DNA of 64,000 bases from a virus. Below the pieces are notes generated by a model, which was given only the letters and a program-made list of their open reading frames with translations, did no database searches and was not told the DNA's origin. Location: IMG/VR virus record IMGVR_UViG_3300017991_000003, positions 96,001-160,000 of that record; one strand, 5' to 3'. How positions within the stretch are numbered: the first letter of the stretch is position 1; every line of letters starts with the position of its first letter. The position numbers and the translations under genes are program-made. Below are positions 39,542 to 58,074 of this stretch, in pieces.

Positions 39542-39543
39542 GT

Positions 39544-39566
39544 GTGGCACTGGCTAGGAGTGTCAG
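39544..39566. repeat. palindromic element copy 4 (gTGGCACT-GGCTAGG-AGTGTCAG)
   Basis: divergent region; immediately 5' of ATG 39541 (minus) and just upstream of a TTGACA hexamer preceding the GroES-like gene. Confidence 0.75.
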
Positions 39567-39625
39567 GGTGGGAAAACTGTCTCCATATCTTGACAGAGGG
39601 GCGCCGGCTAGGCACGATCCCTGGC

Positions 39626-40776: not shown

Positions 40777-40788
40777 ACTCATGACTCA

Positions 40789-41547
40789 ATGAAGCGACTG
40801 ATCTACCAGGTCTGCGTTGGCCCGCCTGACCCGCTCTACGACAAGTGCACGCGCACTGTTGCGGCCTACTGCAAGCGCCTCGGCATCGCGTACATCAAGC
40901 AGACCGAGCCGGTCCTGAAGATCCGCCCGAACCCCGCTACGAGCGGGAGAAGCCAGAACGCTGTTGAACGACTAGGGTACCTGCCGATCTTCGAGAAGGA
41001 GAACGCACTCGCCCACCTTGGTGAGTTCGATCAGGTGGCCATTATCGACTCCGATATCTGGATCAGGGAGGAGGCACCCAACATCTTCGAGGAGCTCGAG
41101 GAGGGTGTTGACTTCATGGGGGTGGTCGAGCGAACCGCACCCATCACGCCGCAGTATGATCGGAAGCTCAAGAGCTACGCGCGCGGCCAGTACGGTCGTC
41201 CGGACTTCCCCTTCATGAACATGGGGCTCATGCTCATGAACAAGAGCCTGCGCCGCTTCTGCCCCGAGCCTCCTCGGGAGTTTCTGGCGCGTCCGGAGTT
41301 CCAGGCCTTCGTGGATGGGCGGGGGGCCTACAAGTGGAGCACGGACCAGACCCTGCTCAACACCTGGTTGACCAGCGATCCCGACATGGTCGTGAAGCCT
41401 CTCGACTGGCGGTGGAACGCCCTGTACGGGGCGCTGGTGCCCGGGTCGATAGAACAGGCCCACTTCGTTCACTTCTTCCTCAAGAACCACCTGGATAGCC
41501 AGGATCCCGACAAGCTCCTTCAGACACAAGGCCGCAAACGCGTTTAG
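40789..41547 (+). CDS. putative glycosyltransferase (nucleotide-diphospho-sugar transferase, DxD type)
   Basis: AIIDSDIW DxD-like motif; ATG 40789. Confidence 0.45.
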   Translation: MKRLIYQVCVGPPDPLYDKCTRTVAAYCKRLGIAYIKQTEPVLKIRPNPATSGRSQNAVERLGYLPIFEKENALAHLGEFDQVAIIDSDIWIREEAPNIFEELEEGVDFMGVVERTAPITPQYDRKLKSYARGQYGRPDFPFMNMGLMLMNKSLRRFCPEPPREFLARPEFQAFVDGRGAYKWSTDQTLLNTWLTSDPDMVVKPLDWRWNALYGALVPGSIEQAHFVHFFLKNHLDSQDPDKLLQTQGRKRV

Positions 41548-41551
41548 CCCC

Positions 41552-42229
41552 ATGAGCAAAGTACCACCCCTATTCATTCACGTACCGAAGACCGGTGGCA
41601 TGTCCGTGCACCATGGACTAGGCCGCCTGATCCGAGAGACGCTGTCTCGAGACAAGCTGAAGTCTCTGGACTACGCGGCGACGATCGAGCAGCACATGCG
41701 CTCCAAGGGTGAGCCTACTCCGGGGTACCGTCATGCCCGGTGGCGTGACGTCAAGCCGGGGTGGCGGGATAAGGGCCGCTGTTTCACGGTGCTGCGCAAT
41801 CCGTGGTCCCGTGTGGTCAGTCGCTACCGGTTCGGACTCAATACCTGGGCGACGCGTCCCTACAACTACACGAACTTCGAGGAGTTTCTTGCGGAGCATG
41901 AGGAGTGGGGCCAAGAGCCGTACTACTGGCACCGCGCCGTGCGGGGCTGGTACCCTGCGGTGGATCACGTGACGGACGGCCAGGGCAACCTCAAGTGCGA
42001 TGTTCTGCGTACGGAGCACCTGGACGATGACATCTGGGCCTACTTCGGGAAGCGGCTACCTCCGCGCCGACGCAACGTCACGCGCGGCGATGCCGTGGAC
42101 TACAAGACCTTCTACGACGATCGAACCATCCAGCTGGTGGCAGACTGGTATGCCGAGGACATTGAGATGTTCGGCTTTGACTTCGACACGCCGGCGACGA
42201 AGAACCTGTGGGAGGGCCTAGGAGCATGA
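41552..42229 (+). CDS. sulfotransferase family protein
   Basis: FIHVPKTGGMSV (HIPKTGG-type PAPS 5'-phosphosulfate binding motif) and RNPWSRVVSRYRF. Confidence 0.6.
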   Translation: MSKVPPLFIHVPKTGGMSVHHGLGRLIRETLSRDKLKSLDYAATIEQHMRSKGEPTPGYRHARWRDVKPGWRDKGRCFTVLRNPWSRVVSRYRFGLNTWATRPYNYTNFEEFLAEHEEWGQEPYYWHRAVRGWYPAVDHVTDGQGNLKCDVLRTEHLDDDIWAYFGKRLPPRRRNVTRGDAVDYKTFYDDRTIQLVADWYAEDIEMFGFDFDTPATKNLWEGLGA

Positions 42230-42783
42230 TGGTTGGCAAGAACCAGGGCAGTCTCCTGGTTGTGCAGCAGATCCCAGAGAACAGCGTGGGTGCCGAGCTC
42301 GGCGTCTGGCGCGGGGACACATCAGCCCGCTTCCTAGCTAGCGGTAAGATCAAGCACTTGCACCTGGTGGATGCTTGGAGTCCCGACCCTTACTACGGCA
42401 TCGAAGGCTACCGAGAGAAGTACGCCAAGCTGGTCGGATCGGGTGATCTCGACGCCTTTCGCGCCTACTACGACGCGGTCCTAGCCGGTGTCCGCAGGCG
42501 GTTTCAAGGCCAGCCCGTTACGATCCACCAAACCACTGTGCACGAGTTTCTGACTGAGCCCCCGGAGGATCTCGACTGGGTCTACGTGGACGCGAGTCAC
42601 GAGTACCTCGACGTCCTTGATGATCTCGAGCGCTGTGCCCGTCACGTGGATCTGATCTTTGGGGATGACTACGGCAACAAGCCAGGGGTGGTTCGCGCTG
42701 TCGACGAGTTTGATCGGACGCACCCCGAGTGGCACCTCCAGGTCCTGGGCAAGAACCAGTACCGCCTCGATAGGAAGGTCTGA
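42226..42783 (+). CDS. class I SAM-dependent methyltransferase (TylF/O-methyltransferase-like)
   Basis: ELGVWRGDTS and VYVDASHEY; ATG 42226 in ATGA overlap. Confidence 0.5.
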   Translation: MMVGKNQGSLLVVQQIPENSVGAELGVWRGDTSARFLASGKIKHLHLVDAWSPDPYYGIEGYREKYAKLVGSGDLDAFRAYYDAVLAGVRRRFQGQPVTIHQTTVHEFLTEPPEDLDWVYVDASHEYLDVLDDLERCARHVDLIFGDDYGNKPGVVRAVDEFDRTHPEWHLQVLGKNQYRLDRKV

Positions 42784-43289
42784 TGCACCCATCAAGCAAG
42801 GCCAATATGAGGGAGGCCTGGGCACTCGTTCCCGACCCCCACCGCGTCGGGGACGTCCTTGATGTAGGCGGCGGTCGTGGCGGGGAATACCAGGAAATCT
42901 GGAAAGGGTGTGCTAGCTACCGAACGGCTGACATTGCAGGTGACTGCGACCTCTTGATGCCTGGTGAGTACGAGATTCCACTTCCGGATGATTCGATCGA
43001 TGTGGTGATTAGCGGCCAGACACTGGAGCATGTCCGCAACCCTTTCCGCCTCGTCACCGAGATGCGCCGGGTACTGAAGCCCGGTGGCTACGTGGTGATC
43101 ATCGCCCCGTCCGCGGGCCCGGCCCATTTCAAGATCGACTGCTGGCGCTTCGTCCGGGATGCGTTCCGGGCCATCGCCCACGAGTGCGATCTAGAGGTTG
43201 TTGCCGATTGGATCTATACCGGGGACTCTGGCCGAGGTCCTAACAAGCAGTGGAACGATCACACCTTCGTGGGGAGGAAGCCCGAGTGA
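42783..43289 (+). CDS. class I SAM-dependent methyltransferase
   Basis: VLDVGGGRGG (motif I), VISGQTLEHV, LKPGGYVVI. Confidence 0.6.
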   Translation: MHPSSKANMREAWALVPDPHRVGDVLDVGGGRGGEYQEIWKGCASYRTADIAGDCDLLMPGEYEIPLPDDSIDVVISGQTLEHVRNPFRLVTEMRRVLKPGGYVVIIAPSAGPAHFKIDCWRFVRDAFRAIAHECDLEVVADWIYTGDSGRGPNKQWNDHTFVGRKPE

Positions 43290-43987
43290 ATGCGTATGCC
43301 ATCACGCTCTTCGGTAACGAGACCAGCACCCAGAGCGTTGACAAGCTCTTTGAGTCCCATGTGGCGCTTGAGCAGCATTTCGATCTGATCCGCTTCCCGG
43401 CCATCACTCCTGACCAGAACCAGGAGATCATGGCGGAGGAGCGCCTGGTGTGGACCTATCCCTGGGAAAACAACCGGCTGGATGGGATCACTGGCTTGAA
43501 GCTGCATCCCTACGCCACACGTGATCGGGGTGCGCGGATCGCCTGCTTCCTATCGCACTACCACCTCTGGAAGCTGGCCTGCGAGACTGGGGAGTGGGTG
43601 ATGATCCTGGAGGACGACACGGTATTCACCAAGCACCTAGACCTAGACAGCCTGCCTTACCGTGAGTGGAGCGCCGTCGGCATCAACAACCCACTAGGGG
43701 CGACGCGTCGAGCGCCTGTGTTCCACGACAAGGTCGTGGCGCAGCGTCCGACTCCGATCATCGAGACCCCGTGGGTTGATGATGAAGTCAGGACCCCGCA
43801 GGGGCTGGCCGGCCACAGTGCCTACATGATCAGCCCTGAGCTGGCTAAGGACCTGATCCATCGAGCCCGTCATGCGGGTTGCTGGCCTAACGACGCATTG
43901 ATGTGCAAGCAGCTGTACCCTGGGAAGCTCGGGGTCACAACCGAGTTCTACACCCGAGTCCAGCAGACCCCGAGTACTCTGGCATGA
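43286..43987 (+). CDS. glycosyltransferase family 25-like
   Basis: GTG start (GTGA overlap); ACFLSHYHLWK and ILEDDTVF motifs. Confidence 0.5.
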   Translation: MNAYAITLFGNETSTQSVDKLFESHVALEQHFDLIRFPAITPDQNQEIMAEERLVWTYPWENNRLDGITGLKLHPYATRDRGARIACFLSHYHLWKLACETGEWVMILEDDTVFTKHLDLDSLPYREWSAVGINNPLGATRRAPVFHDKVVAQRPTPIIETPWVDDEVRTPQGLAGHSAYMISPELAKDLIHRARHAGCWPNDALMCKQLYPGKLGVTTEFYTRVQQTPSTLA

Positions 43988-44646
43988 AGGCGCGCGTCAT
44001 CACCCTGATCCACAACAAGCGATCTGTTCAGGTAGCGAATCGGTGCATTGAGAGCGCTGCAAGGTTCGGCGTTGAGGTTGATATCTTCCCGGCCATCAGG
44101 GCGGCGGATAACCCCAAGGCCCTGATGTTCGAGCGGAAGTTCTCGATGAAGGGGTTTGAGGACAATGAGTACTCGCGTCTTGAGCCGTGCCTGGCTACGT
44201 TCCTCTCCCACTCTCGCCTATGGGAGCTTGCGGTGCTGCTAAAGGAGGCAGTCCTGATCCTCGAGCACGACGCTGTGTTCCAGGCTCCGCTCCCGGAGAT
44301 GATCGAGGAGCGGGTGAAGATGCTCTGCAATCTGGGCAAACCGAGCTTCGGCTCCTTCAAGACCCCGAAAGAGGGGCTAGGCCCGTTCGTGTCCAAGCCC
44401 GGCGGCTATCTAGGCGGCGCCCACGCGTACCTGGTCCAGCCTGAGGCCGCTGAGGTGATGTTGGAGAAGGCCAAGACAGAGGCGGAGCCGGCCGATGTGT
44501 TCATCCAGAAGAAGCGCTTCCCCTGGATGACTGAGTACTACCCGTGGCCGGTGATCTGCGATGACTCCTTCTCCACCATCCAGAAGCCCGCAGGTTGCAC
44601 GGCCAAGCACAACAAGGTCGAGATCATCGATCAGGATGAATCGTGA
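43984..44646 (+). CDS. glycosyltransferase family 25-like (paralogue of previous)
   Basis: ATG 43984 in ATGA overlap; ATFLSHSRLWE and ILEHDAVF. Confidence 0.5.
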   Translation: MKARVITLIHNKRSVQVANRCIESAARFGVEVDIFPAIRAADNPKALMFERKFSMKGFEDNEYSRLEPCLATFLSHSRLWELAVLLKEAVLILEHDAVFQAPLPEMIEERVKMLCNLGKPSFGSFKTPKEGLGPFVSKPGGYLGGAHAYLVQPEAAEVMLEKAKTEAEPADVFIQKKRFPWMTEYYPWPVICDDSFSTIQKPAGCTAKHNKVEIIDQDES

Positions 44647-47923: not shown

Positions 47924-48050
47924 AGACCCAAGAGATGGGTTTGGCCCGCTAGTCCCTGGCACACATCCCGGCCTAGGCCCTAGACTTAGGACGAACCCTA
48001 AGGGCTCTTTCTGGGCCCCAAGTCCCCTTCTAACCGGATCCTGAGACACC

Positions 48051-48320
48051 ATGGACGCCGCCACTCTGTTCGAATCCCAGCTCCGCGAGAGCCTGGAGCG
48101 CCACAACACCCCCTCCATCATGGACAAGATCGCCGCTTTCCACGCGGAGCAGGGCGATCTCGTCGAAGACGTTGTTGAGGAGCTCCCCCTGGAAGACCGA
48201 CTCGCCAAGGTCGCTGAGGCCATCTCTGCTCGCCTGAACAGCGAGCCCGAGGAGCCCGAGGAGCCCGGGGAGGTCGAGGAGACCCCCGAGCAGAGCCTGC
48301 TCGAGCGCCTCCGCGGCTAG
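48051..48320 (+). CDS. hypothetical acidic protein (89 aa)
   Basis: ORF track; ATG 48051. Confidence 0.45.
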   Translation: MDAATLFESQLRESLERHNTPSIMDKIAAFHAEQGDLVEDVVEELPLEDRLAKVAEAISARLNSEPEEPEEPGEVEETPEQSLLERLRG

Positions 48321-48324
48321 ACCG

Positions 48325-48729
48325 GTGGATCTGGGGGTCGTTCAGGTCTCTGATCAAGTCCTGACCCCGGGCCTGGGGGACGCTCCGGTCCGGGTGTCAG
48401 GTCTTCGTGCCCTCGTACAGCAGGCGGTCATCGAGCTCATCTCGAACCCCCTGCCGGAGCGAGGGCGCGGGGCTGGGCTAGCTCAGCTCGTTGCAGCCCT
48501 GCCTCCCCAGAACCAGGCACAAGCTCGTGGCACCTTTGCGCAGGCCGTGAGCTCCGCCAAGACGCACATCTTGGCCAACCAGCGCTACGCTTCCAACCTC
48601 ACCGCGAACGAGCGGCTGCAAGACATGACCCTGCTTCGGGCCGAGCTCAATGGGCTCGTCTGGGAGATCGACATCAGGATCACCAACGTAGCCGGCGAGT
48701 CCGCCACCTTTGCCCTGCCGGTCAGCTGA
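48325..48729 (+). CDS. hypothetical protein (134 aa)
   Basis: ORF track; apparent GTG start. Confidence 0.4.
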   Translation: MDLGVVQVSDQVLTPGLGDAPVRVSGLRALVQQAVIELISNPLPERGRGAGLAQLVAALPPQNQAQARGTFAQAVSSAKTHILANQRYASNLTANERLQDMTLLRAELNGLVWEIDIRITNVAGESATFALPVS

Positions 48730-49796
48730 TGACGTCCCACAAGAGTACCCACAAGGACAAACTACCCGGCGGACTTGCGGACAAGATGCGAGATGCCGTC
48801 TTCGCGGCCTCCGCCCTCAAGGCGGGAACCAAGGTGGAGATGGAGCATACTGATGATCCGCAGCTAGCCAAGGAGGTAGCTAAGGACCATCTCGCCGAGG
48901 ATCCGCAGTACTACAAGAAGCTGCGGAAGATGGAGAAGAAGGCCGGTGGCTACGCCACCGGCTCGGTTGAGGTCGCCTCGCAGGTAGGTCGTAGGGTCTT
49001 GCCCGCCTGGAGCCGGTCGAAGAAGATTCCCGCGGGAGCGAAGCGTGCCGCAGGTATGGTTAGGCAGCAGCCGTTCGCCCCTGGTGGGAAAAACAGCCTG
49101 ATCCCCGCTTCGTCGACGACTCGCAAGCCGCTCCCGACCTTCACCTCGACATCCAAGCCGATGAGCATGGCCAAGGCCGCGATGCTGCAAGGCATGGTGA
49201 ACACGCTGGCTAAAGAGGCGGGGTGGGTGGATAAGCTCAAAGGCGGAGCCAAGAAGGCTCCCGGTGTGATCGCCCGAGAGGGCGCAGGCATCGCAACGTG
49301 GGGAGTCGGGGAAGGGGTGGCCAACAAGCTCATTCCCCGGTGGAAGCCCCCGACCCCGCGCGTGAAAGTGGCTGGGGTTGATAAGGAGGCCATCCTTCAG
49401 GCCTTGCTATGGGCGCCGGCCCTGTATGAAGGGGCCAAGGCCGCCGGCCGCGTAGCGGCTAAACCGTTCAAATCCCTCAAGCGTGGGCTAGCCCCGAAGA
49501 GCCCCAAGATCCAAGGACCGCACCCTGAAGTGCGCGCTGCGAACACCCCTGAGGTGGCTAAGGTCGCGGTATGGGGGACGCTCGCCCGTGTGGCTACTAA
49601 GCTGGCCCCTCGATTGGCTAAGGTGGCTCCGAAGACGAGTGCCCGTCTAGCGACGGCTACGCCGCAATCTACCAAGGCGCTCGCAGGACGCGCCGGTAAG
49701 GCGGCTGCTAGGGATGCGGCGCTGGGAGCCGGTACGATGGGCGCAGCTAACGCGGCAAGCCACGTGGCCCGACCGAAACGCCCTAACCCTCTGTAG
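48729..49796 (+). CDS. basic A/K/P-rich protein (355 aa); possible nucleic-acid-binding or internal virion protein
   Basis: ORF track; composition only. Confidence 0.5.
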   Translation: MTSHKSTHKDKLPGGLADKMRDAVFAASALKAGTKVEMEHTDDPQLAKEVAKDHLAEDPQYYKKLRKMEKKAGGYATGSVEVASQVGRRVLPAWSRSKKIPAGAKRAAGMVRQQPFAPGGKNSLIPASSTTRKPLPTFTSTSKPMSMAKAAMLQGMVNTLAKEAGWVDKLKGGAKKAPGVIAREGAGIATWGVGEGVANKLIPRWKPPTPRVKVAGVDKEAILQALLWAPALYEGAKAAGRVAAKPFKSLKRGLAPKSPKIQGPHPEVRAANTPEVAKVAVWGTLARVATKLAPRLAKVAPKTSARLATATPQSTKALAGRAGKAAARDAALGAGTMGAANAASHVARPKRPNPL

Positions 49797-49805
49797 GGAT
49801 TAGAG

Positions 49806-52800
49806 ATGGCTGAGTTCAAGGACTGCCAGAGCCCGAGCCCCCTGACCGGGCGGATCGGCCCCGATCTGATCGAAGAGGTTGGCGGGGTCTCTCTGGCAGG
49901 TGTGTTGGCAGGCACGGAGACGCTGCCGGTTGGTGCAATCCCTGTCACAGCCCCGCTTTATGACAGTCCGAGCCCTACAGGTACGGCTATTGGACTGCGG
50001 TTGGATTCGAGCCTGACGGTTGATGCCCAGGGCCGGCTCAGTATTGCTGGAGCCCCATCGCCCGCGGCCCACGCCTCGAGCCACGAGCCTGGCGGGTCTG
50101 ATCCGATCACCCCTGCTGCCTTTGACGGGCTTATCACCCCGCCGGTCGCCACGACGGTTGTCCTTGGCGGTGTCAAGGACGGTGACGGCGTCTCGATCGC
50201 CGGTGACGGCACCCTGACCCTCGATCTGGCCGCCGCCAGTGGCCTCGAGATCAGCGGCGGGACCCTGAGACTGGCACTGGGTACCGGTGTCAGCTTCAGC
50301 GGCAACGATCTGGTCCTGGACGAGGCCACGGACTCCACGCTGGGCGGCATCATCGCCGGCACGGGTCTATCAGTCAGCTCGGGTACGGCGAGCCTCAACG
50401 CCCCCCAAGTCACGGGAGCCTCCCTAGCGGGCAGCACTCTGGTCTGGGATACCAGCCCGAGTGCCCAGAGTCCCAGCCCTGCTCTGAGGCTTCCGGCGAG
50501 CTTCACGTACACCAAGGCGATCCCGCAGTCGCAGCTGCCGACCGCGGCCTACGGCAGCCCGGGCAGCTCGAGCCCCAGCCCGCAGCTCGGCCTTGTCCGC
50601 ATCTATGGCCCGAGCGAGGGCCTGACGCTTAGCGATGGGCTCCTGTCGCTGGCGACTCCGATCAGCACGGATCACCTACCCACCGCTACTGGTCTAGGTG
50701 GGCGAGGCATCGTCCGCGCGGGCCTACTTGACGGTACGGGCGTCTACGTCTCCAACAGTACGACCGGCCAGCTGGCGATCCTGATTGACGCCACGTCGGA
50801 CACGTTGGCGTTGTCGTCGAGCGGGATCAAGGTCAAGTCCAATCGCTTCCTGGCGCTGACTGGCACCGGTAACCTCCCCAGCCCCGCGGCGAGCCCGAGC
50901 CCGGGGACTGACGGCTGGATGACCGGGTCGGTTCGATTCACCAACGACCTGGGTGAGCCTGCGATCCGCACCGGTAACCAGCGGATCCGCTACGAGTTCG
51001 GGGCCAGCCCGTCTCCCGGGGCGATCCTGGCATCGGCTGATCTAAGCGATCTACTAACGTACCAGGAGATCAGCACACTCATCTCCCAGGCTGAGCTTGG
51101 TGTCGAGGTTTGGACTCCTGGGCGACCTGTGCAGGCAGAGCCGGGTACGAGCCTAGGTGCGTTGGCGGAGCTCTCGGCCGGGGATCGGTTCCTTACGAGC
51201 ACGTCGTCCAACACCAACCCCGGCGGTGACTGGAATGCGCACAACTGCGTGTTCGCGGTCTGGACGGAAACGGCTCCCGATACCTTTACCTGGGTCTATG
51301 AGACCCCCACGGTCAACACCTGGTTCACAGACGACGTAACTGGGGACACGTGGGCTGTTGTTGTCGGCTCCCCCTCCCCGAAGTCGCCCTCACCGAACCC
51401 GTCGCGAGAGGCTTTCCGGTATCGCGCTCGTCAAGATGACACAGCATCGACGGCCCGAGCTGGTCGCGTGCGTGTCCCGACGACCAGTGGCCTCGTCATG
51501 GACGGCGAGGATATTCGGCTATCCCTCGCCTCGGACATCGGGGTCAGTACGGGCCTGCGTCTGATCACCCGAGCTCGCAACAACGCGCTAGCTCTCGATC
51601 TCAGCCGGTCCCAAGGGATCTTGGAGCTCAACTCCGACGGGCGCCTTCAGGTTGCCGCGTCCTCGATCCAGGCCACGGAGATCGCGGACAACACCATCGT
51701 CCTCGACAACCTGGCCGCGGATCAGGTGACAGGCGGTACCAAAGACTTCATCGCCACGCAGTACGACGGGCTATCCGTCCGGCTGGTGGGGGACTCGGAA
51801 GACTTCCGCGTCACTGGGGCGCCTGTCAGCACGGCTACGACCATTCTGATCCACACCGAGGACGGTATCGGTGTGGCGGAGGAGTCGATCAACACTGACG
51901 CTCTCTCGGACGAGGCGGTTAGCTACAGCAAACTCCTGATGCCCACGGCCTCCGGTCTGGAGGACAACGGGCAGGACAAGGTCCGGGTCAAGCTCCAGAC
52001 CCGCAGCGGCCTCGAGCGAACGGTGGATGGCCTGGCGGTCAACATCCATGACGTGGTGGACGATGCCACGATTGAGCTCGACACATCCACGGGCGGCTTG
52101 CGCGTCAAGACAGGTAGCCTGACGTCGTCGTACTTCGCGTCGGGCCTGGCGATCTCGGCCTCGGTCCTCACGCTGGGAGCCCCTATGCTCTCGTCGAGCG
52201 GGCTCCTGACCTTCTGCTACCAGAGCCCTCTGGTCCTGACCGGCAGCCCCGGCTGCTTGACGATCGGCGAAGGCTTGATCAGCTCGCCGTATCTCGGCAC
52301 CGGGTCGGTCAGCTACGCCAAGCTCAAGCTGGCGAGCCCCTCCGGCATCACGCAGACGGCCGGCGGTATCAAGGTCGACATCTCGACGGGTCTCGCCTTC
52401 AGCGGCAACCAGATCGTGGTCGACCAGGTGCCGGCAGACGCGATGGCACTGGATGCGGATTCGGCGTTGTACGCCGCTAGCCCGACCAGTCCGCTGACGC
52501 AGCTGGAGCTGAGCATCCGGGTCAGCAGCCCGTTCACGCAGACGGGTGGTACGCTGGATCTAGCGGACGAGGGTGTTCAGGTGAGTCACCTGGATCGCTC
52601 CAAGCTGCGCGGTAGCTTCCTGGCCAGCGGCCTCGAGGCCGGCCTAGGTACCCAGACCAGTCCCTTCGACTCTTGGGTCACGAGCCCGGCGTTCTACACC
52701 GGCTCGGACGCCCCGGGTATGCGGGTGGCTACGCGGACGCGATCCGATCACGACTACCTGGATGCGGCGGGTCAGGGACAAGGCACGTTCGAGCCCTATA

Positions 52801-53594
52801 GCTTGACGCTGCTTCAACTTGGTGGCACGCCCTCGGGCAGCGACTACCAGAACCGACTGGCCCCGACGCTCAACAGCATCGGTCTTCCGCACCTAGCCCT
52901 CGGCAACGAGACCCTGGCCCCCACGGACTCCGATCGGCTGCCGACTGGTTTCGGTAGCTACAAGGCGCTGGTCCAGAGCGGGAAGCTGCCCACGAGCCCG
53001 GTGACGAGCCGCGGCTGGGCAGTGGCTAACCTGTCGGAGAACATCCCAGCTGTCCGAGTCGGTCCGGGCCTCAGCATCACGGCTGCGGGCTTCGTGGTTC
53101 CGAGCGATGTCCAGGCGGATCAGATCCTCCTGGGCACCACGTCTCGCGAGACCAGTCCGCGCGGGGTCTCGAGTCTTGCGCTTGTGCGTGACGGGGGATT
53201 GAGCAGCCCGGTCACGGATGGGGCGCTGGCGCTCGGCTACGACGTATCGGACTTCGAGGTCACCTCGGCGCTTGGCCTTGGCCGACGTCAGGCGTACCAA
53301 GAGGAGTACACGGGCGCCTCGGTTCCCGCAGCGGCGAGCGGGTACTACACCTTCGCTCTGACGCTGGGGAGCTCGCAAGGCCTTGTGCCCGGCACGGTGT
53401 CGGTCCACGTCAACGGCCTACGTCTCGAAAGCCCCTTCTTCAGCTACACCAGCCCCTCGATCACCTCGAAGGAGGTGTACCTCAACGAGTCGGCAAGCCC
53501 TGGCCCCAACCTGGCCTACACGTTGAGCCAGTCTACTAGCCCGGACGTTCTTGACCGGGTTGTCATTCGCTATCGAACCCGTCCGACCTCATGA
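49806..53594 (+). CDS. giant S/T/G/P-rich fibre-like protein (1262 aa); putative tail fibre or adhesin
   Basis: ATG 49806; recurrent SPSP motifs; Gly/Ser/Thr-rich repeats. Confidence 0.6.
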   Translation: MAEFKDCQSPSPLTGRIGPDLIEEVGGVSLAGVLAGTETLPVGAIPVTAPLYDSPSPTGTAIGLRLDSSLTVDAQGRLSIAGAPSPAAHASSHEPGGSDPITPAAFDGLITPPVATTVVLGGVKDGDGVSIAGDGTLTLDLAAASGLEISGGTLRLALGTGVSFSGNDLVLDEATDSTLGGIIAGTGLSVSSGTASLNAPQVTGASLAGSTLVWDTSPSAQSPSPALRLPASFTYTKAIPQSQLPTAAYGSPGSSSPSPQLGLVRIYGPSEGLTLSDGLLSLATPISTDHLPTATGLGGRGIVRAGLLDGTGVYVSNSTTGQLAILIDATSDTLALSSSGIKVKSNRFLALTGTGNLPSPAASPSPGTDGWMTGSVRFTNDLGEPAIRTGNQRIRYEFGASPSPGAILASADLSDLLTYQEISTLISQAELGVEVWTPGRPVQAEPGTSLGALAELSAGDRFLTSTSSNTNPGGDWNAHNCVFAVWTETAPDTFTWVYETPTVNTWFTDDVTGDTWAVVVGSPSPKSPSPNPSREAFRYRARQDDTASTARAGRVRVPTTSGLVMDGEDIRLSLASDIGVSTGLRLITRARNNALALDLSRSQGILELNSDGRLQVAASSIQATEIADNTIVLDNLAADQVTGGTKDFIATQYDGLSVRLVGDSEDFRVTGAPVSTATTILIHTEDGIGVAEESINTDALSDEAVSYSKLLMPTASGLEDNGQDKVRVKLQTRSGLERTVDGLAVNIHDVVDDATIELDTSTGGLRVKTGSLTSSYFASGLAISASVLTLGAPMLSSSGLLTFCYQSPLVLTGSPGCLTIGEGLISSPYLGTGSVSYAKLKLASPSGITQTAGGIKVDISTGLAFSGNQIVVDQVPADAMALDADSALYAASPTSPLTQLELSIRVSSPFTQTGGTLDLADEGVQVSHLDRSKLRGSFLASGLEAGLGTQTSPFDSWVTSPAFYTGSDAPGMRVATRTRSDHDYLDAAGQGQGTFEPYSLTLLQLGGTPSGSDYQNRLAPTLNSIGLPHLALGNETLAPTDSDRLPTGFGSYKALVQSGKLPTSPVTSRGWAVANLSENIPAVRVGPGLSITAAGFVVPSDVQADQILLGTTSRETSPRGVSSLALVRDGGLSSPVTDGALALGYDVSDFEVTSALGLGRRQAYQEEYTGASVPAAASGYYTFALTLGSSQGLVPGTVSVHVNGLRLESPFFSYTSPSITSKEVYLNESASPGPNLAYTLSQSTSPDVLDRVVIRYRTRPTS

Positions 53595-54130
53595 CTCTCA
53601 AGCGCGTCACTTGGGTAGGTGATCGTCACCGCCCCCGTCCTCGCTACCGCGGTTTCCGTCGCGGCGTCCCTCAGCTAGTGACCAAAGAGGTTGCTGATCT
53701 CATGATTCGGGATCACGGTCCTGATGTGATCGTGGCTGATCGACTAACTAAGGTGGCTGAGCATGTGGGCGTTGATGTCGAGCGTCGCGAGTTTGAGCAG
53801 ACTACCCGCGGCGAGGGCGATGAGCGTCCGCGGTGGCGCGGTCCTGAGGCTAACGCTCCCGCGTACCGAGGCACCCCATCGCACCGGATCAACTTCTCGT
53901 GGTCGGCTCGAGGAGCTACCTTTCGGCCTGTGCAATACCGAGTGTACCGCGGGACAAGCCTGGATAACCTCCAGCTCCTGACCACGCAGGACGCTGACTC
54001 AGCTCGAGTGAGCGTTGATACCACAGTCGCGGGCCGCACGACGTACTACTACGGTGTGTCCTATGTCGACAACCGCGGCTTCGAGAGCGAGATCACGATC
54101 GCTGGATCAGCCACCACACCCACTTTCTGA
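53591..54130 (+). CDS. hypothetical protein (179 aa), tandem paralogue A
   Basis: shares KRV(T/S)W(V/F)GDR, VVAD...VAEH(V/I)G...(E/D)R(R/K)EF, Y(R/Q)(V/L)YRGT and Y(Y/I)Y(G/S)V(S/T)Y with the next ORF. Confidence 0.5.
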   Translation: MTLKRVTWVGDRHRPRPRYRGFRRGVPQLVTKEVADLMIRDHGPDVIVADRLTKVAEHVGVDVERREFEQTTRGEGDERPRWRGPEANAPAYRGTPSHRINFSWSARGATFRPVQYRVYRGTSLDNLQLLTTQDADSARVSVDTTVAGRTTYYYGVSYVDNRGFESEITIAGSATTPTF

Positions 54131-54149
54131 CCTCTAACCCCACAGACTC

Positions 54150-54692
54150 ATGACGACCTCTATTCGAAAGCGGGTGAGCTGGTTCGGTGACCGGACCACG
54201 CGCATCCCCAAGCATCGCGGGCTTCACCCGAGCGGTACTCCGACGGAGATGCCTGAAGATGATGCCAACGACCTGATCCGAGACTATCCCAGTCACCTCG
54301 TGGTGGCTGACCCGATCACGTTGGTTGCGGAGCACATCGGTGAAGAGGTGGACCGGAAGGAGTTCTACGACGCTGGATACCGCTCCTACGGTACGCAGCC
54401 TGTGAAGTGGAAAGGCCCTGCGGTGACCTCGGTCACGCCGACGGCCAGCCCGGCTACGTCGCCTACGATCGTGTGGGACGCGATGCCCGCTCGGTTTGCT
54501 CCTCAGAGCTATCAGCTGTACCGAGGTACCGCGGCAGCGCCGAAAACGACGCTGGTGGGCTCGACTACCCTCCTGACGCTCAGCGAGGCCCCGCCGGCTC
54601 AAGGCACCTACATCTACAGCGTGACCTACACGGATCCCCACGGGTATGAGAGCGACGTCGGTACGTCGGTGTCTCACTACTCGTCTCCGTGA
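54150..54692 (+). CDS. hypothetical protein (180 aa), tandem paralogue B
   Basis: see paralogue A. Confidence 0.5.
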   Translation: MTTSIRKRVSWFGDRTTRIPKHRGLHPSGTPTEMPEDDANDLIRDYPSHLVVADPITLVAEHIGEEVDRKEFYDAGYRSYGTQPVKWKGPAVTSVTPTASPATSPTIVWDAMPARFAPQSYQLYRGTAAAPKTTLVGSTTLLTLSEAPPAQGTYIYSVTYTDPHGYESDVGTSVSHYSSP

Positions 54693-54715
54693 TACGATCC
54701 CACTAACGACACGTC

Positions 54716-55738
54716 ATGGTCCACATCAAACAGGTTCGTGGGGTCCCCAGCTATCTGAGCTTGGCGACCCCGCTCACCCCGCAGGGTGACACGGTGACCC
54801 AGGTCATCACTGGGCAGAAGACGTGGACCACGAGCGCGAGCACTAACGACCGTAGCGCGCTGGCCGCTAGTGTCCCCGGACGCTTCGACTCGAACGGTAC
54901 GGACGAGGCTGCTGCGGCGTTGTTCGGGGCCTCAAGCGGTATCTTCCGCTCGACGCTCGGGTTCTGGGGTAACAGCGAGGCCAATGGCATGCTGTCCTGG
55001 GCGCCGATCGCCACCCCGGTCAATCAGGACTTCGGCCGGTTCATGATCACCAACAGCCGCACGGCTACTGGTGATGCTTGGGACCCCGCGACTAATGGTG
55101 GTGCGGATACCGGCGTCAGCGGCTTGGTGCAGTACTACGCGGAGTTCCCGGCGCTGCGGCAGTCCGTGCCTGTGGCTTCGCCATCTGACTACGCAGATGA
55201 GACGGGGCTACCGGCGCCTCCTCTTACTTTCGGCCACCTCAAGCTGTTCGCTCGTCAGGGCAACCCAGCCTACGGGTATGAGGCAAGCCCTGGGCGGGAG
55301 TTCGGGCTTAGCTACCTGTCCTACAGCGTTCCTTCGGGATCGATCGAAGAAGACATCGCGACATATCAGCGCGCTGATGTGCGGTACGGGGCGGCTCAGG
55401 TATCGCACATCCATGTGGACACGTGGAGCCCGTCGACCACGATCTACCCCTTCGTGGCTCCGGGAGACGTTCGCATCACGCAGCTTGCTCTCATCGGGTC
55501 AGCAACCGTAGCCACATCTACCCTATCTGGCTACAACCACGCGCAGGTGAGTCCGGGCTACCTCTTCTCCGCAAGCCCTGTGTCGGCTATTGGCGCCGGC
55601 TCCCCGGTGAGCTACTCGCCTGATCAGTACCGAACGATGGCCCAGGGGGATTGGCTCAGCCTTAGCTGGGCCGGCTCCTCGAGCCCCCTCACCAACCTGA
55701 CGATCAGCGTCTCCTATAACCCCATCTATCCGAGCTGA
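54716..55738 (+). CDS. hypothetical protein (340 aa), S/T/G-rich
   Basis: ORF track; ATG 54716. Confidence 0.5.
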   Translation: MVHIKQVRGVPSYLSLATPLTPQGDTVTQVITGQKTWTTSASTNDRSALAASVPGRFDSNGTDEAAAALFGASSGIFRSTLGFWGNSEANGMLSWAPIATPVNQDFGRFMITNSRTATGDAWDPATNGGADTGVSGLVQYYAEFPALRQSVPVASPSDYADETGLPAPPLTFGHLKLFARQGNPAYGYEASPGREFGLSYLSYSVPSGSIEEDIATYQRADVRYGAAQVSHIHVDTWSPSTTIYPFVAPGDVRITQLALIGSATVATSTLSGYNHAQVSPGYLFSASPVSAIGAGSPVSYSPDQYRTMAQGDWLSLSWAGSSSPLTNLTISVSYNPIYPS

Positions 55739-55740
55739 CT

Positions 55741-58029
55741 ATGTCGAAGAACCCCCTGAACCTGGGTAAGCACGCGGCACACTACGGTCAGATCGAAATG
55801 ATCGACGGGGCCTACCTGCTGAAAGGCACCGCCACCACGTACATGGTCCTGTACGGTGCCGGCACTGCGCTGGATCGGGGTCAGGTGACTGTGCTGGACG
55901 CTATTTCCGGTTACGCAGTGATCGACCGAGCTCTGGTAGGGGTACGCGGGGCTGGTAAGCTCAAGCCCGCAGCGCCGGTCGCGGCGATAAGCCATGAGGT
56001 CAAGGTGAGCGCTAAAGGCCCCATCCTGTCGACCTTGTATGAGGATGTCATTGACGGCATCACCCGCCGCCGGGAGCACGCCTACTGGGTTGAGGGTAAC
56101 TGCGTGCATGTGCTGATCTCTCAGCAGGGCGCGGGATCAACCGAGTATGAGTCCAACTACTCAGGGGTCTACGGCGGTCGCTTTGATGATGAGCTCGCCG
56201 CGGATCTGGTGGAGATGACGGGCACGCTGACGGTCCCCACTGTGTCGGCGATGATCAAGGAGTCGGGAGAGCCCGAGAAGCCGCGGTTCTTCTCGCACAT
56301 GATGGACCTTGGCTGGTCACACGCTTCGGCGTTTGATCTGCCTAACCCAGCTGTGGTCGAGGATCCACACGCCTGGACGTACTCTACTGCGGGTAAGTAC
56401 AAGAAGAACACCGCTGGAGCCCTGCAAGGGCCTCTTCAAGAGATGCTGCTGGGGTCCGCGTCGTATGACATCGTCGACTGCTTGGTCCACCCAGCACAGT
56501 CCGCTCCCCGTATTCCCAAGCGATCACTACAGCCTTGGACGCTCTTGACCAGTCGCGGCGAGTCGTGGGATCACTTCGAGAAGTACCTCGAGTGGCGTGC
56601 GGAGATGGGTATGACCAGTGGGGTGATCTACCCCATGTTCTGGTGGCAGGAGATCAACTACCCTCCGAGCGTGGTTCAGGCCAACGGCCAGCACTGGTAT
56701 CCCGCCGGCGATCACGAGGGTTTCGCCAGCTTCTGCGCTATGGCCCGTGCGCTTGGCTTCGACGTCGGCGGCTACACCTTGTGGGGCATTCAGAAGGAGA
56801 CTGTCCCTAACTACAACCCAGGTGATCGGGTACTCGAGAGCAGCGGTGCCCCGCGCCCGTCGGTGTGGGAGTCCAATGTGTGGCTTAGTCGGGAAGAGCA
56901 GACGCAGAAGTACATGGACCTGTACCTGCCTAAGCTTCGAGATGAGTACCACTGGAGCATGATCTTCTACGACGTGGAGACCTACGCAGATCCCACGCAC
57001 GGCAACGGGGATCACGTGGACATGACGGCCGGCAGCCTGTGCGGAACGCTGGCTGGCTGCATCGCTGCGCGTCGAGAATGGATGCAGTACGGACAGGACG
57101 TCCTAGGCCCGGACGCGTTTGCTCATGGCGAAGGTAGTCGAGGCGGCTACCTAAATGATCAGGAGTACCTGTGGGCCGGTGTGATGACTGGCTTGAACAA
57201 GTCGATCAACACCAACAGCGGTAAGGAGGAGATCCAGACCACCGACCCTGATCGCACGATGCTCAGCTGGCCTATGGCTCTTGAGTACGTGTGGGCCGTG
57301 GAGAACCAGGTGTTCGCTCATACGCCTAACTTCCCAGGACGCACCTTCTCCCCCAACGACGCGAGTCTCCAAGACCCCGGAGTCGGCGGCCTCTTCCCAT
57401 TCAGTGTGAAGATGGTGGATGCGCTACGAGCTGTGAACTTGATGCACGGCCGTATGGGTGCTCTTCCGATCAATGGACAAGGGCACGAGGCTTTCCTGTC
57501 AAAGCGCGAGCAGGTCAAGGAGTACTACATCGCCTCGGCGATCTCAGCCTTCACGCGTGACCTCAGCGTCCCCACGATCCACTACCACAGCGACGAGCAC
57601 GGCTATGAGACCTTCTCGCAGCGCTACGCTCGTACAGGTCTAGACGGCTTCCGCCGTACACGTGTACGCCTGGTCTTCGAGTCAGGTCTCGAGGTCTATG
57701 TGAGCCTGGACAAGCAGCCGTGGGTTCTGCCTGACCGGTTTGGTGTGACGATCGAGGAGTTCGGCTACTTCTGCTTTGGGTCGGTCAACAACACGCTGGT
57801 GGTGGGCGGTAGTTGCTCCGCTCCCGTCACAGGCAACAAGCGGGTTGACTTCGTCATGATCCCCGGCGTGCTCACGGCGGTGGATGGTCGCGGTGAGGTG
57901 ACGAACTTCCTCGGCATGCCCGTGCCCGGAGGCCGGCTAGTGGTGCGCGACTACAAGAGGCAGTTCGTGATCAATGAGGGCACTGACGGGGTGCTGCACA
58001 AGTCGCTGACTACCTCGCACGGGTTCTAG
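55741..58029 (+). CDS. large hypothetical protein (762 aa); possibly tail-associated enzyme
   Basis: ORF track; W/Y-rich central region; functional guess from context only. Confidence 0.6.
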   Translation: MSKNPLNLGKHAAHYGQIEMIDGAYLLKGTATTYMVLYGAGTALDRGQVTVLDAISGYAVIDRALVGVRGAGKLKPAAPVAAISHEVKVSAKGPILSTLYEDVIDGITRRREHAYWVEGNCVHVLISQQGAGSTEYESNYSGVYGGRFDDELAADLVEMTGTLTVPTVSAMIKESGEPEKPRFFSHMMDLGWSHASAFDLPNPAVVEDPHAWTYSTAGKYKKNTAGALQGPLQEMLLGSASYDIVDCLVHPAQSAPRIPKRSLQPWTLLTSRGESWDHFEKYLEWRAEMGMTSGVIYPMFWWQEINYPPSVVQANGQHWYPAGDHEGFASFCAMARALGFDVGGYTLWGIQKETVPNYNPGDRVLESSGAPRPSVWESNVWLSREEQTQKYMDLYLPKLRDEYHWSMIFYDVETYADPTHGNGDHVDMTAGSLCGTLAGCIAARREWMQYGQDVLGPDAFAHGEGSRGGYLNDQEYLWAGVMTGLNKSINTNSGKEEIQTTDPDRTMLSWPMALEYVWAVENQVFAHTPNFPGRTFSPNDASLQDPGVGGLFPFSVKMVDALRAVNLMHGRMGALPINGQGHEAFLSKREQVKEYYIASAISAFTRDLSVPTIHYHSDEHGYETFSQRYARTGLDGFRRTRVRLVFESGLEVYVSLDKQPWVLPDRFGVTIEEFGYFCFGSVNNTLVVGGSCSAPVTGNKRVDFVMIPGVLTAVDGRGEVTNFLGMPVPGGRLVVRDYKRQFVINEGTDGVLHKSLTTSHGF

Positions 58030-58030
58030 C

Positions 58031-58053
58031 TAAAAAAGAGCCCCGAAGGGCTC
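58031..58053 (-). terminator. rho-independent terminator (minus strand), same hairpin as 30897-30912
   Basis: AAAAAAGAGCCCCGAAGGGCTC; T-tract on minus strand. Confidence 0.6.
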
Positions 58054-58074
58054 CTAGACCTTGTTCGGGCCTAA

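What the first reader, a model, noticed from the sequence alone, without database searches (positions are those of the whole stretch)
49806..53594. Giant S/T/P-rich fibre-like protein with recurrent SPSP motifs
The 1262-aa ORF is Gly/Ser/Thr-rich with at least five SPSP-containing segments (for example AQSPSPAL, SSSPSPQL, ASPSPGTDGW, GASPSPGAIL, VGSPSPKSPSPNPS). This pattern is typical of O-glycosylation targets and of tail-fibre or adhesin repeat architecture, making it the natural candidate substrate for the glycan-tailoring island. It is followed by tandem paralogues and two more large ORFs, suggesting a host-recognition module.
Basis: partly seen in the sequence, partly recalled or inferred. 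Interest (0 to 1): 0.5.

Follow-up and report, generated by a model that had tools for sequence, protein, structure and literature searches.

The report
Ser-Pro-studded phage fibre protein
This gene encodes a long fibre protein of a rare, uncultivated large phage. Its exposed loops are unusually rich in Ser-Pro/SPSP motifs, which may be sugar-attachment sites for a neighbouring glycosyltransferase island, but nothing here shows that they are.

Summary
ORF 49806-53594 (+, 1262 aa) is real and conserved. It carries 8 SPSP tetrapeptides, all in residues 9-530, against 0.08 expected by chance. No other real gene in the window has one.

The underlying signal is the Ser-Pro dipeptide: 36 observed against 10 expected. 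All five full-length relatives keep this enrichment at 3-3.9x, while Thr-Pro is not enriched. The non-homologous 340-aa protein two genes downstream shares the enrichment. The rest of the window and 52 unrelated fibre-repeat proteins do not.

The protein is a fibre of a new, very rare family with no Pfam, PHROG or PDB match. It contains two clear copies of the 'LPxATxxxLGGVK' unit that is solved in the phi29 and crAss001 head fibres. It also has one HxxxHxxGGxD unit, about 16 degenerate shaft units, and a C-terminal module of about 310 aa.

The SP/SPSP sites sit at indel-prone positions, which suggests loops, and are mostly encoded by AGCCCN doublets.

A glycosyltransferase island lies upstream and stays linked to the fibre operon even in a relative only 38% identical. 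The same island also occurs widely in T4-like phages, far from any fibre gene. Glycosylation of the fibre is therefore plausible (about 25%) but unproven. Both structure predictions failed.

The parts
49806..53594 (+). Fibre gene, 1262 aa. It founds a new, rare protein family.
   Evidence: ORF. Full-length homologues at 56-61% identity and 38-42% identity. No Pfam, PHROG or PDB sequence match.
49806..50120 (+). Conserved N-terminal region (residues 1-105), the presumed attachment end. It holds SPSP sites 1 and 2.
   Evidence: Dense invariant columns. A separate 115-aa fragment, P0010, matches residues 4-100. The attachment role is inferred.
50058..50117 (+). 'SPxxHAxxHxxGGSDPI' unit (residues 85-104), a single copy.
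   Evidence: The same unit is tandemly repeated, with TP in place of SP, in other proteins found by the exhaustive search: P0015, P0017, P0034, P0042, P0058.
50127..50231 (+). Fibre repeat unit 1, 'PPVATTVVLGGVKDGDGVSIAGDGTLTL' (residues 108-142).
   Evidence: E = 1.1e-15 against an HMM built from unrelated proteins. The unit profile hits phi29 gp8.5 (6QVK/3QC7, E = 6e-7) and crAss001 gp21/gp29 (7QOF).
50313..50399 (+). Fibre repeat unit 2, 'LDEATDSTLGGIIAGTGLSVSSGTASL' (residues 170-198).
   Evidence: E = 1.1e-10. Direct Pfam PF11133 match is below threshold, E = 0.034.
50535..50651 (+). Degenerate unit 3 (residues 244-282). SPSP site 4 lies inside an insertion between 'LPTA' and 'LGLVRI'.
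   Evidence: Weak match in the window (E = 0.019). The orthologous segment of P0005, which lacks the insertion, matches at E = 1e-5 (alignment).
49830..51395 (+). Span holding the 8 SPSP tetrapeptides. Each is 12 nt, starting at 49830, 49965, 50469, 50571, 50892, 51006, 51369 and 51384.
   Evidence: Five of the eight are AGY-CCN-AGC-CCN doublets. All eight lie within 3 alignment columns of an indel.
52659..53591 (+). C-terminal module (residues 952-1262), the presumed distal receptor-binding end.
   Evidence: It matches a 333-aa protein or partial gene call, P0006, on its own (43% identity, E = 3e-35). The function is inferred. AF2 failed on residues 941-1262.
48051..49796 (+). Upstream operon genes: 89 aa, 134 aa, and a 355-aa basic K/A/P-rich protein with a DUF5661 segment.
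   Evidence: Conserved order in all relatives.
53591..54692 (+). Tandem paralogues of 179 and 180 aa. The first is translationally coupled to the fibre gene.
   Evidence: 34% identity, E = 3e-31. Relatives have a single copy.
54716..55738 (+). 340-aa Ser-rich protein that is also SP-enriched and is not homologous to the fibre.
   Evidence: SP observed/expected in four orthologues: 8/3.4, 9/2.8, 6/3.6, 12/3.6. Best blastp E-value against the fibre is 0.35.
55741..58029 (+). 762-aa protein, the last gene of the operon and its variable position.
   Evidence: Only 5 homologues and no Pfam or PDB match. Absent in the L001 lineage. A different, unmatched 411-aa ORF occupies the position in L008. A hairpin at 58036-58055 follows.
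40111..44646 (+). Glycan-tailoring island: GT77-like (221 aa), GT8-like (252 aa), sulfotransferase, two methyltransferases and two GT25 enzymes.
   Evidence: Pfam hits. The 221-aa ORF is 46% identical to an L008 ORF with a PF03407 hit. The 252-aa ORF has a DSD motif, and some homologues carry PF01501. Its link to the fibre rests on synteny only.

Best explanation
The ORF encodes the subunit of a long, most likely homotrimeric, virion fibre of an uncultivated phage of about 175-193 kb and 62% GC.

Proposed architecture:
- A conserved N-terminal ~105 residues anchor the fibre to the particle.
- Next come one His-x3-His/GGSD unit and two canonical 'LPxATxxxLGGVK...DGTLxL' units. These are the unit seen in the trimeric phi29 and crAss001 head fibres and repeated in many phage fibre proteins.
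- A shaft of about 800 residues follows, built from degenerate 'G-phi-x-phi ... phi-x-phi' units.
- A separable C-terminal module of about 310 residues would contact the host surface.

The Ser-Pro and SPSP motifs are short insertions in exposed, indel-tolerant loops between these units. Many were probably created by duplication of an AGCCCN hexanucleotide. Their density is kept high by selection.

What is shown: the gene, its conservation, the repeat homology, the SP statistics and the loop/indel location. What is inferred: trimeric state, anchor and tip roles, virion location, and selection on SP density.

Whether the SP serines carry glycans from the upstream island is a separate, unproven add-on, which I put at about 25%.
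For: The gene is real. Full-length homologues run from 38 to 61% identity with few gaps, and the operon order is conserved.

Fibre identity:
- The exhaustive HMMER search finds region 105-205 repeated up to 20 times in other proteins.
- Seven of the 13 distinct non-family repeat-region hits scanned carry PF11133 above threshold.
- The repeat HMM hits residues 108-142 (1e-15) and 170-198 (1e-10).
- The unit profile hits phi29 gp8.5 (E = 6e-7) and crAss001 head fibre (E = 1e-4) in the PDB.
- gp8.5 is a trimer whose spike is a three-stranded supercoil (PMC7602432).
- The HxxxHxxGGxD unit is shared with other tandem-repeat proteins.
- The shaft unit occurs 16 times against 3.4 expected, z = 6.9.

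SP facts:
- 36 SP against 10.1 expected; TP 6 against 8.3; 44% of prolines follow Ser. Relatives are enriched 3.0-3.9x.
- Other window genes have 39 against 50 expected. Unrelated fibre-repeat proteins have 60 against 139 expected and no SPSP.
- There are 62 SP columns across five sequences. Seven are shared by all five and 23 are unique to one, yet each sequence keeps 27-36.
- SP serines lie next to indels in 26 of 36 cases, against 29% of all residues, p = 7e-8.
- The SPSP codons are AGCCCN doublets.
Against: There is no structural support. AF2 gave pLDDT 33 (residues 1-600, 4-sequence alignment) and 32 (residues 941-1262, single sequence), so no fold search was meaningful.

Only about 90 residues have a significant link to known fibres. 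Direct Pfam matches are below threshold: PF11133 E = 0.034 and Adeno_shaft E = 0.084.

No capsid, portal, sheath or baseplate gene was identified in the window or in the related loci. Virion location and the point of attachment (tail or head) therefore rest on analogy.

The indel association is partly circular, because several SPSP are themselves the inserted residues.
Confidence: 0.75

Rival explanations
1. The Ser residues of the SP/SPSP motifs on the fibre, and on the 340-aa partner, would be O-glycosylated in the cytoplasm by the phage's own island. That island encodes GT77-like, GT8-like and two GT25 enzymes, with methyl- and sulfo-transferases to tailor the glycan. The result would be a sugar-coated fibre. 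This is compatible with the fibre explanation and adds to it.
For: - SP enrichment is confined to two non-homologous proteins of one operon.
- Ser-Pro is enriched and Thr-Pro is not.
- SP density is kept despite site turnover.
- SP sites lie at indel-prone, presumably exposed positions.
- All island enzymes are soluble-type families that use nucleotide sugars or SAM/PAPS.
- The island is on the same strand 0.4-3.4 kb upstream of the fibre operon in every relative. This includes L008, where the fibre is only 38% identical and the tailoring genes have been swapped (GT8, an extra GT25 and a CmcI-like methyltransferase in place of the sulfotransferase).
- There is a precedent for phage-encoded virion glycosylation in mycobacteriophages, as cited in PMC12619734.
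Against: - There is no chemical evidence.
- The GT8-like gene has more than 2000 homologues at or above about 50% identity.
- In L014 and L015 the same island lies among RNR, RNaseH, PhoH, gp32 and gp33 genes of T4-like phages. No fibre gene lies next to it, and no SP-rich ORF was found among the larger called ORFs scored within 10 kb.
- GT8 and GT25 members are classically lipopolysaccharide enzymes. One homologue is annotated that way by its source.
- P0005 keeps SP but has no SPSP, so SPSP is not a required sequon.
- The only SPSP 'glycomodule' found in the literature is the plant one. It depends on hydroxyproline in the secretory pathway (PMC7511660). No prolyl hydroxylase was detected among the ORFs scanned.
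Confidence: 0.25
2. The protein is a head (capsid) fibre or decoration fibre, like phi29 gp8.5 or crAss001 gp21/gp29. It would enhance adsorption rather than act as the primary tail receptor-binding protein.
For: The only solved structures hit by the repeat unit are head fibres: 6QVK/3QC7 and 7QOF. The only Pfam family involved is Phage_head_fibr. The operon stands apart, flanked by small genes on the opposite strand, and no recognisable tail genes are adjacent.
Against: No part of the protein matches the N-terminal capsid-binding part of PF11133; only profile positions ~224-255 of 277 are matched. The protein is 4.5 times longer than gp8.5. The unit is also tandemly repeated in many large proteins of 900-2900 aa, and from my own knowledge these are usually annotated as tail fibres.
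Confidence: 0.2
3. The SP/SPSP excess is a mutational by-product with no function of its own. Slippage or duplication of AGCCCN in a GC-rich gene would be tolerated in loops.
For: Most SPSP are AGY-CCN-AGY-CCN doublets in the window and its relatives. Ser before Pro uses AGY in 29 of 36 cases, against 53 of 120 elsewhere in the gene (p = 1e-4), and the same holds in L001 and L012. All SPSP coincide with indels. The 522-530 double SPSP is an insertion specific to the window.
Against: - The excess is absent from other genes of the same genome, although a weaker AGY trend is present there.
- Serines in SP are more conserved than other serines: 2.56 against 1.61 of 4 homologues identical.
- SPSP at residues 54-57 is invariant, and P-S-P at 257-259 is invariant within SPSP (DPSP in P0004), across four sequences that are 56-61% identical and show synonymous differences.
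- L008 keeps 3x SP enrichment without the AGY bias.
- The non-homologous 340-aa protein is also enriched.
Confidence: 0.2
4. The protein is not part of the virion. It would be an infected-cell surface or secreted adhesin-like protein. Under this reading the island modifies host polysaccharide or DNA instead.
For: No virion gene was identified nearby. The island is found among early genes in other phages.
Against: The sequence shows no N-terminal signal peptide or transmembrane stretch (read; no predictor was run). The repeat units are those of phage fibres. No relatives were found in 185,579 bacterial and archaeal genomes.
Confidence: 0.05

Closest known systems
Bacteriophage phi29 head fibre gp8.5 (Pfam PF11133; PDB 3QC7, 6QVK)
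   Same: Both share the ~30-residue 'YxLPxATxxxLGGVK-G' unit. The profile hit is E = 6e-7, and the window has two clear copies. gp8.5 is a trimer with an extended supercoiled spike that aids host adhesion (PMC7602432).
   Different: gp8.5 is 280 aa with an N-terminal beta-tulip capsid-binding base, and no such domain is matched here. The Pfam score is 14 bits against a cut-off of 24.6. This protein is 1262 aa and more than 1000 of its residues have no known relative.
crAss001 head fibre proteins gp21/gp29 (PDB 7QOF)
   Same: The same LPxATxxxGGVK unit is present, E = 1e-4.
   Different: Those chains are short (97 aa) and the rest shows no similarity.
Multi-repeat phage fibre proteins carrying PF11133 units (for example P0007, P0008, P0009, P0012, P0024)
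   Same: The same unit is present, and some also share the HxxxHxxGGxD unit. The composition is also Gly/Ser/Thr-rich.
   Different: They carry 4-20 tandem, well-preserved units. Ser-Pro is depleted in them (60 against 139 expected) and they have no SPSP. Here only two units are well preserved, and SP is 3.5-fold enriched.
Phage-encoded virion glycosylation in mycobacteriophages (Freeman et al. 2023, known here only through its citation in PMC12619734)
   Same: Phage-borne glycosyltransferase genes lie close to genes for virion proteins, and those proteins are the proposed acceptors.
   Different: In that system the glycans are on the C-termini of capsid and tail-tube subunits and were demonstrated chemically. 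Here the candidate acceptor is a fibre with dispersed Ser-Pro loops, the enzyme families differ, and nothing has been demonstrated. The original paper could not be read.
Plant arabinogalactan 'SPSP' glycomodule
   Same: The same tetrapeptide is sufficient to direct O-glycosylation in plants (PMC7511660).
   Different: The plant system needs prolyl 4-hydroxylation and Golgi enzymes acting on hydroxyproline. No prolyl hydroxylase was found among the ORFs scanned, and phage assembly is cytoplasmic. The resemblance is in sequence only.

Membership tests
Pfam PF11133 Phage_head_fibr (phi29 gp8.5 family) | Whole-protein score at or above Pfam's gathering cut-off (24.6 bits). | tested here: not met
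   No hit for the full protein at E <= 0.01. A 115-aa excerpt scores 14 bits, E = 0.034.
Pfam PF11133 Phage_head_fibr (phi29 gp8.5 family) | The 'LPxATxxxLGGVK' unit of the spike region. | tested here: met
   Two copies at residues 108-142 and 170-198, E = 1e-15 and 1e-10 against an independent repeat HMM. The unit profile hits 6QVK/3QC7.
Pfam PF11133 Phage_head_fibr (phi29 gp8.5 family) | N-terminal capsid-binding beta-tulip base domain. | tested here: not met
   Only profile positions ~224-255 of 277 are matched. The PDB profile search with the whole family finds no gp8.5 match.
Adenovirus-type triple beta-spiral shaft (Pfam PF00608) | Significant match to the shaft repeat. | tested here: not met
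   13 bits against a cut-off of 30, E = 0.084, for residues ~138-167 only. A looser 'G-phi-x-phi...phi-x-phi' pattern is enriched, 16 against 3.4 expected, but that is a resemblance and not membership.
Trimeric phage fibre (general class) | Elongated trimeric fold. | tested here: inconclusive
   AF2 monomer models have pLDDT 33 and 32. No multimer prediction was available.
Trimeric phage fibre (general class) | Presence in the virion. | not testable with these tools
   This needs proteomics of particles, and the phage is known only from metagenomic contigs.
Phage-glycosylated virion protein | Phage-encoded glycosyltransferases genetically linked to the acceptor gene. | tested here: met
   The island lies 0.4-3.4 kb upstream on the same strand in all lineages, including the 38%-identity one. 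The island also occurs away from fibres in other phages.
Phage-glycosylated virion protein | Covalent glycan on defined residues. | not testable with these tools
   This requires mass spectrometry or glycan staining.
Plant-type SPSP (Hyp) glycomodule | Prolyl 4-hydroxylase plus Hyp-glycosyltransferases. | tested here: not met
   No 2OG-Fe(II) oxygenase or P4H hit among the 38 window ORFs scanned with Pfam. Small ORFs were not all scanned.

The most novel reading that the evidence does not exclude
A phage-encoded cytoplasmic O-glycosylation system would use Ser-Pro in exposed loops as its acceptor motif. It would coat a virion fibre and its 340-aa partner with a methylated and, in this lineage, sulfated glycan. 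The core enzymes (GT8-like plus two GT25) are shared with thousands of uncultivated aquatic phages. This would be a new sequon and a new class of phage virion glycosylation, with the tailoring genes swapped between lineages to vary the glycan.
Probability: 0.2. Interest if true: 0.75.

Novelty: new member of a known kind. Interest (0 to 1): 0.42.

Why it matters
Fibres decide which hosts a phage can attach to, and this one founds a family with no annotated or solved relative.

The Ser-Pro signature is statistically clean. It is specific to two proteins of one operon and genetically tied to a glycosyltransferase island, which gives a concrete and cheap experiment: mass spectrometry, or co-expression of a 560-residue fragment with the island genes.

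A positive result would extend phage virion glycosylation beyond mycobacteriophages. It would also give a first function to an island whose core gene has more than 2000 metagenomic homologues and none in cultured phages. A negative result would leave an ordinary, if unusually composed, fibre.

Tried and rejected
Searches that found nothing:
- Megablast and tblastn of the region and the protein against 50,697 phage records.
- Pfam and PHROGs on the fibre and nine neighbours; the only hit was DUF5661.
- PDB sequence searches with the family profile and with the 762-, 340-, 134- and 252-aa proteins.
- A scan of 185,579 GTDB genomes, which found no relatives, so there is no host clue.
- tblastn of the GT8-like protein against cultured phages. 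The GT25 protein gave only three weak hits.

Structure prediction:
- AF2 on residues 1-600 with the 4-sequence alignment gave pLDDT 33.
- AF2 on residues 941-1262 gave pLDDT 32. I submitted this as a single sequence by mistake, without an alignment.
- I therefore ran no fold search.

Repeat detection:
- Self-BLAST returned only the identity alignment.
- All-against-all hhalign of alignment segments timed out.
- jackhmmer from a 21-residue seed did not extend beyond the seed.
- I replaced these with an HMM built from other proteins and a pattern count with shuffles.

Ideas rejected:
- That the phage belongs to the 'moraphage' lineage (PMC12619734). Those phages are predicted to infect Bacteroidota, and nothing here links them.
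- That the 1220-aa ORF near the island in L014 is a fibre homologue. Its N-terminus is unrelated.
- That the window phage is T4-like. Its exonuclease matches small cyanosiphoviruses and Bacteroides phages best, not T4-like phages.

The Freeman et al. 2023 paper is not held, so I could not read it.

Full report
1. THE OBSERVATION

ORF 49806-53594 (+) starts with ATG, encodes 1262 aa, and ends in a TGA that overlaps the ATG of the next gene. Its composition is S 12.4, L 11.4, G 11.1, T 10.1, A 9.8 and P 6.5%.

There are 8 SPSP tetrapeptides, at residues 9, 54, 222, 256, 363, 401, 522 and 527. All lie in the first 530 residues. In 20,000 shuffles the mean count was 0.08 and the maximum 3.

In the six-frame translation of the 64-kb window there are 25 SPSP. 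Eight are in this ORF. The only other ORFs of at least 50 aa that contain one are antisense or shadow ORFs, each with a single copy.

The 179- and 180-aa ORFs that follow are paralogues, 34% identical with E = 3e-31. ORFs of 340 and 762 aa complete the plus-strand block, which ends at a hairpin at 58036-58055.

2. THE GENE IS REAL BUT THE FAMILY IS RARE

The word-indexed search of 5.8 billion proteins returned only the protein itself and three full-length homologues at 56-61% identity. The exhaustive HMMER search of 1.84 billion cluster representatives added three things:
- one full-length member at 42% identity (P0005);
- a 333-aa match to the C-terminal module (P0006);
- a 115-aa N-terminal fragment (P0010).

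IMG/VR and JGI scans found the same lineages, on contigs of 51-183 kb. GTDB genomes hold no relative.

There is no match to cultured phages, Pfam, PHROGs or PDB sequences.

The window has about 62% GC. It carries ThyX, an SbcD-like exonuclease, a DUF932 protein and a Cpn10-like domain. Its source contigs are 175-193 kb. The exonuclease is closest to small cyanosiphoviruses and Bacteroides phages, not to T4-like phages. Host and morphotype remain unknown.

3. WHAT KIND OF PROTEIN IT IS

In the exhaustive search, about 50 unrelated proteins matched only residues ~105-205, often in up to 20 separate stretches. Seven of the 13 distinct non-family repeat-region hits I scanned carry Pfam PF11133, Phage_head_fibr, well above threshold.

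I built an HMM of the unit from those other proteins only. Its consensus is GTYTLPIATTSVLGGVKIGSGLTVAGDGTISVDLAA. It hits the window protein as follows:
- residues 108-142, E = 1e-15;
- residues 170-198, E = 1e-10;
- residues 260-282, weakly.
In P0005 the segment orthologous to the weak hit matches at E = 1e-5.

A profile of 40 units, including the two from the window, hits phi29 head fibre gp8.5 (6QVK/3QC7, E = 6e-7 and 7e-6) and crAss001 head-fibre proteins (7QOF, E = 1e-4). gp8.5 is a trimer with a capsid-binding base and a three-stranded supercoiled spike (PMC7602432).

Residues 85-104 (SPAAHASSHEPGGSDPI) are a single copy of another unit. It is tandemly repeated in other proteins found by the search.

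Beyond residue 200, a looser unit (G-phi-x-phi, 3-10 residues, phi-x-phi) occurs 16 times against 3.4 expected, z = 6.9, out to residue ~1100. This agrees with a sub-threshold Adeno_shaft match, E = 0.084.

Residues 952-1262 form a module that matches P0006 on its own.

Taken together, this is a long fibre with mosaic N-terminal fibre units, a degenerate shaft and a separable distal module. The direct Pfam score for PF11133 is below threshold (14 against 24.6 bits), and the capsid-binding base of gp8.5 is not matched. It is therefore not a member of that family. It shares one unit with it.

Both AF2 runs failed, with pLDDT 33 and 32. The fold and oligomeric state are therefore inferred.

4. 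THE SER-PRO SIGNATURE

The deeper signal is the dipeptide:
- SP occurs 36 times against 10.1 expected.
- Ser precedes 44% of all prolines.
- TP is not enriched (6 against 8.3).

All relatives are SP-enriched by 3.0-3.9x, including P0005, which has no SPSP. SPSP counts across the five sequences fall 8, 6, 3, 2, 0.

The other likely genes of the window have 39 SP against 50 expected. The 52 unrelated fibre-repeat proteins have 60 against 139 expected, and no SPSP.

The only other enriched protein is the 340-aa product two genes downstream. In four orthologues it has 8/3.4, 9/2.8, 6/3.6 and 12/3.6 SP observed/expected. It shows no detectable similarity to the fibre, best E = 0.35.

Across five aligned sequences there are 62 SP columns. 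Seven are shared by all five and 23 are unique to one sequence, yet each sequence keeps 27-36. Serines in SP are more conserved than other serines: 2.56 against 1.61 of 4 homologues identical.

SP serines lie within three columns of an indel in 26 of 36 cases, against 29% of all residues and 30% of other serines (p = 7e-8). All eight SPSP do. At several sites the SPSP is itself the insertion relative to P0005.

At the DNA level most SPSP are AGY-CCN-AGY-CCN. Ser before Pro is AGY in 29 of 36 cases, against 53 of 120 elsewhere in the gene (p = 1e-4). The same holds in L001 and L012. It does not hold in L008 or in the other window genes.

My reading is that SP-containing loops arise largely by hexanucleotide duplication and are retained in exposed positions. 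Retention and density point to selection, and the nature of that selection is open.

5. THE GLYCAN ISLAND AND THE SUBSTRATE HYPOTHESIS

ORFs 40111-44646 encode:
- a GT77-like protein, assigned by 46% identity to an L008 ORF with a PF03407 hit;
- a 252-aa GT8-like protein with a DSD motif, some of whose homologues carry PF01501;
- a sulfotransferase;
- two methyltransferases;
- two GT25 enzymes.

The island lies upstream of the fibre operon on the same strand in every relative. In L008 the fibre is only 38% identical, and there the island abuts the operon with a 0.4-kb gap. It keeps the GT77-like gene, the GT8-like gene (71% identity, the best conserved protein of the region) and the two GT25 genes. 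Its tailoring genes are different. This supports a functional link.

Against that link, the GT8-like protein has more than 2000 metagenomic homologues at or above about 50% identity, and none in cultured phages. In two long contigs (L014, L015) the same island lies among the RNR, RNaseH, PhoH, gp32 and gp33 genes of T4-like phages. No fibre gene is adjacent, and no SP-rich ORF was found among the larger called ORFs scored within 10 kb. The island therefore travels widely and is not fibre-specific.

In a short literature search I found no prokaryotic O-glycosylation system with a Ser-Pro acceptor. The plant SPSP glycomodule depends on hydroxyproline (PMC7511660), and no hydroxylase was seen here. 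Phage-encoded virion glycosylation does have a precedent in mycobacteriophages (cited in PMC12619734).

I put the hypothesis at about 25%. It is attractive and testable, but unproven.

6. COMPARISON, NOVELTY AND VERDICT

The protein works like a phage fibre. It shares one solved unit with the phi29 and crAss001 head fibres but fails membership of PF11133. It is a new member, and a new family, of a known kind.

Whether it sits on the tail or the head cannot be decided. I favour a tail or receptor-binding role because of its size and its multi-gene operon, but I give a head fibre 20%.

'Fibre' holds. 'Host-recognition module' is plausible. 'Glycosylation substrate' is open. The fibre reading is ordinary. 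The Ser-Pro signature tied to a widespread but uncharacterised glycosyltransferase island is the part worth an experiment.

Noticed in passing
window 40789-41547 (+); loci L014 10001-12720 and L015 10001-15481: The 252-aa GT8-like protein has more than 2000 metagenomic homologues at or above about 50% identity and none in 50,697 GenBank phage records. With a methyltransferase, sometimes a sulfotransferase, and two GT25 genes, it forms a conserved island in uncultivated T4-like phages of ~42% GC, next to RNR, PhoH, gp32 and gp33. The island's function is unknown.
   Followed up: partly
window 49806-53594, and the AGCCC distribution over 48000-56000: Serine before proline is encoded by AGY in 81% of cases, against 44% elsewhere in the gene (p = 1e-4). 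The same is seen in L001 and L012, but not in L008 or in other window genes. The pentamer AGCCC occurs 21 times per 4 kb here, against about 5 elsewhere in the window.
   Followed up: partly
window 53591-54130 and 54150-54692: The ~180-aa gene is duplicated only in the window lineage; relatives have one copy. The C-terminal halves read like a fibronectin-III/Ig-like domain ('YRVYRGT...TYYYGVSYVD..G.ES'). That reading is by eye, with no family hit.
   Followed up: partly
window 48729-49796 and 48243-48281: The protein just upstream of the fibre is strongly basic and K/A/P/G-rich, with a short DUF5661 segment (residues 28-71). It varies in length among relatives (355-419 aa) and is replaced by a 112-aa basic protein in L008. 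The 89-aa ORF before it contains a 9-bp tandem repeat, GAGCCCGAG x 4.3, encoding an acidic EPEEPEEP tract.
   Followed up: no
window 55741-58029: The 762-aa ORF has only five homologues in 5.8 billion proteins and no Pfam or PDB match. It is absent from the L001 lineage. In L008 a different 411-aa ORF, which gave no match to any window ORF, occupies its position. It is the variable end of the operon.
   Followed up: partly
locus L001 19250-23741: In the 61%-identity relative, a 661-aa ORF and then a 3449-aa ORF lie about 5.5 kb downstream of the fibre operon on the same strand. L008 has a 666-aa ORF at the corresponding place. None has a Pfam hit. They could be further large structural proteins.
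   Followed up: no
window 39344-40141: A 265-aa ORF just upstream of the glycan island has a Cpn10 (GroES-like) domain at residues 108-184 behind an N-terminal extension of about 100 residues.
   Followed up: no
hit H17, Synechococcus phage S-8S55 29517-29834: The weak tblastn match of the window GT25 protein in a cultured cyanophage falls in a gene annotated as a 2OG-Fe(II) oxygenase domain protein. This hints at a hydroxylase-glycosyltransferase fusion there.
   Followed up: no
window 58036-58055: A GC-rich hairpin, AAGAGCCCCGAAGGGCTCCT, with an A-run on one side and so a T-run on the other strand, lies between the end of the plus-strand operon and the convergent minus-strand gene 58075-58578. 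It is probably a terminator for at least the minus-strand gene.
   Followed up: no
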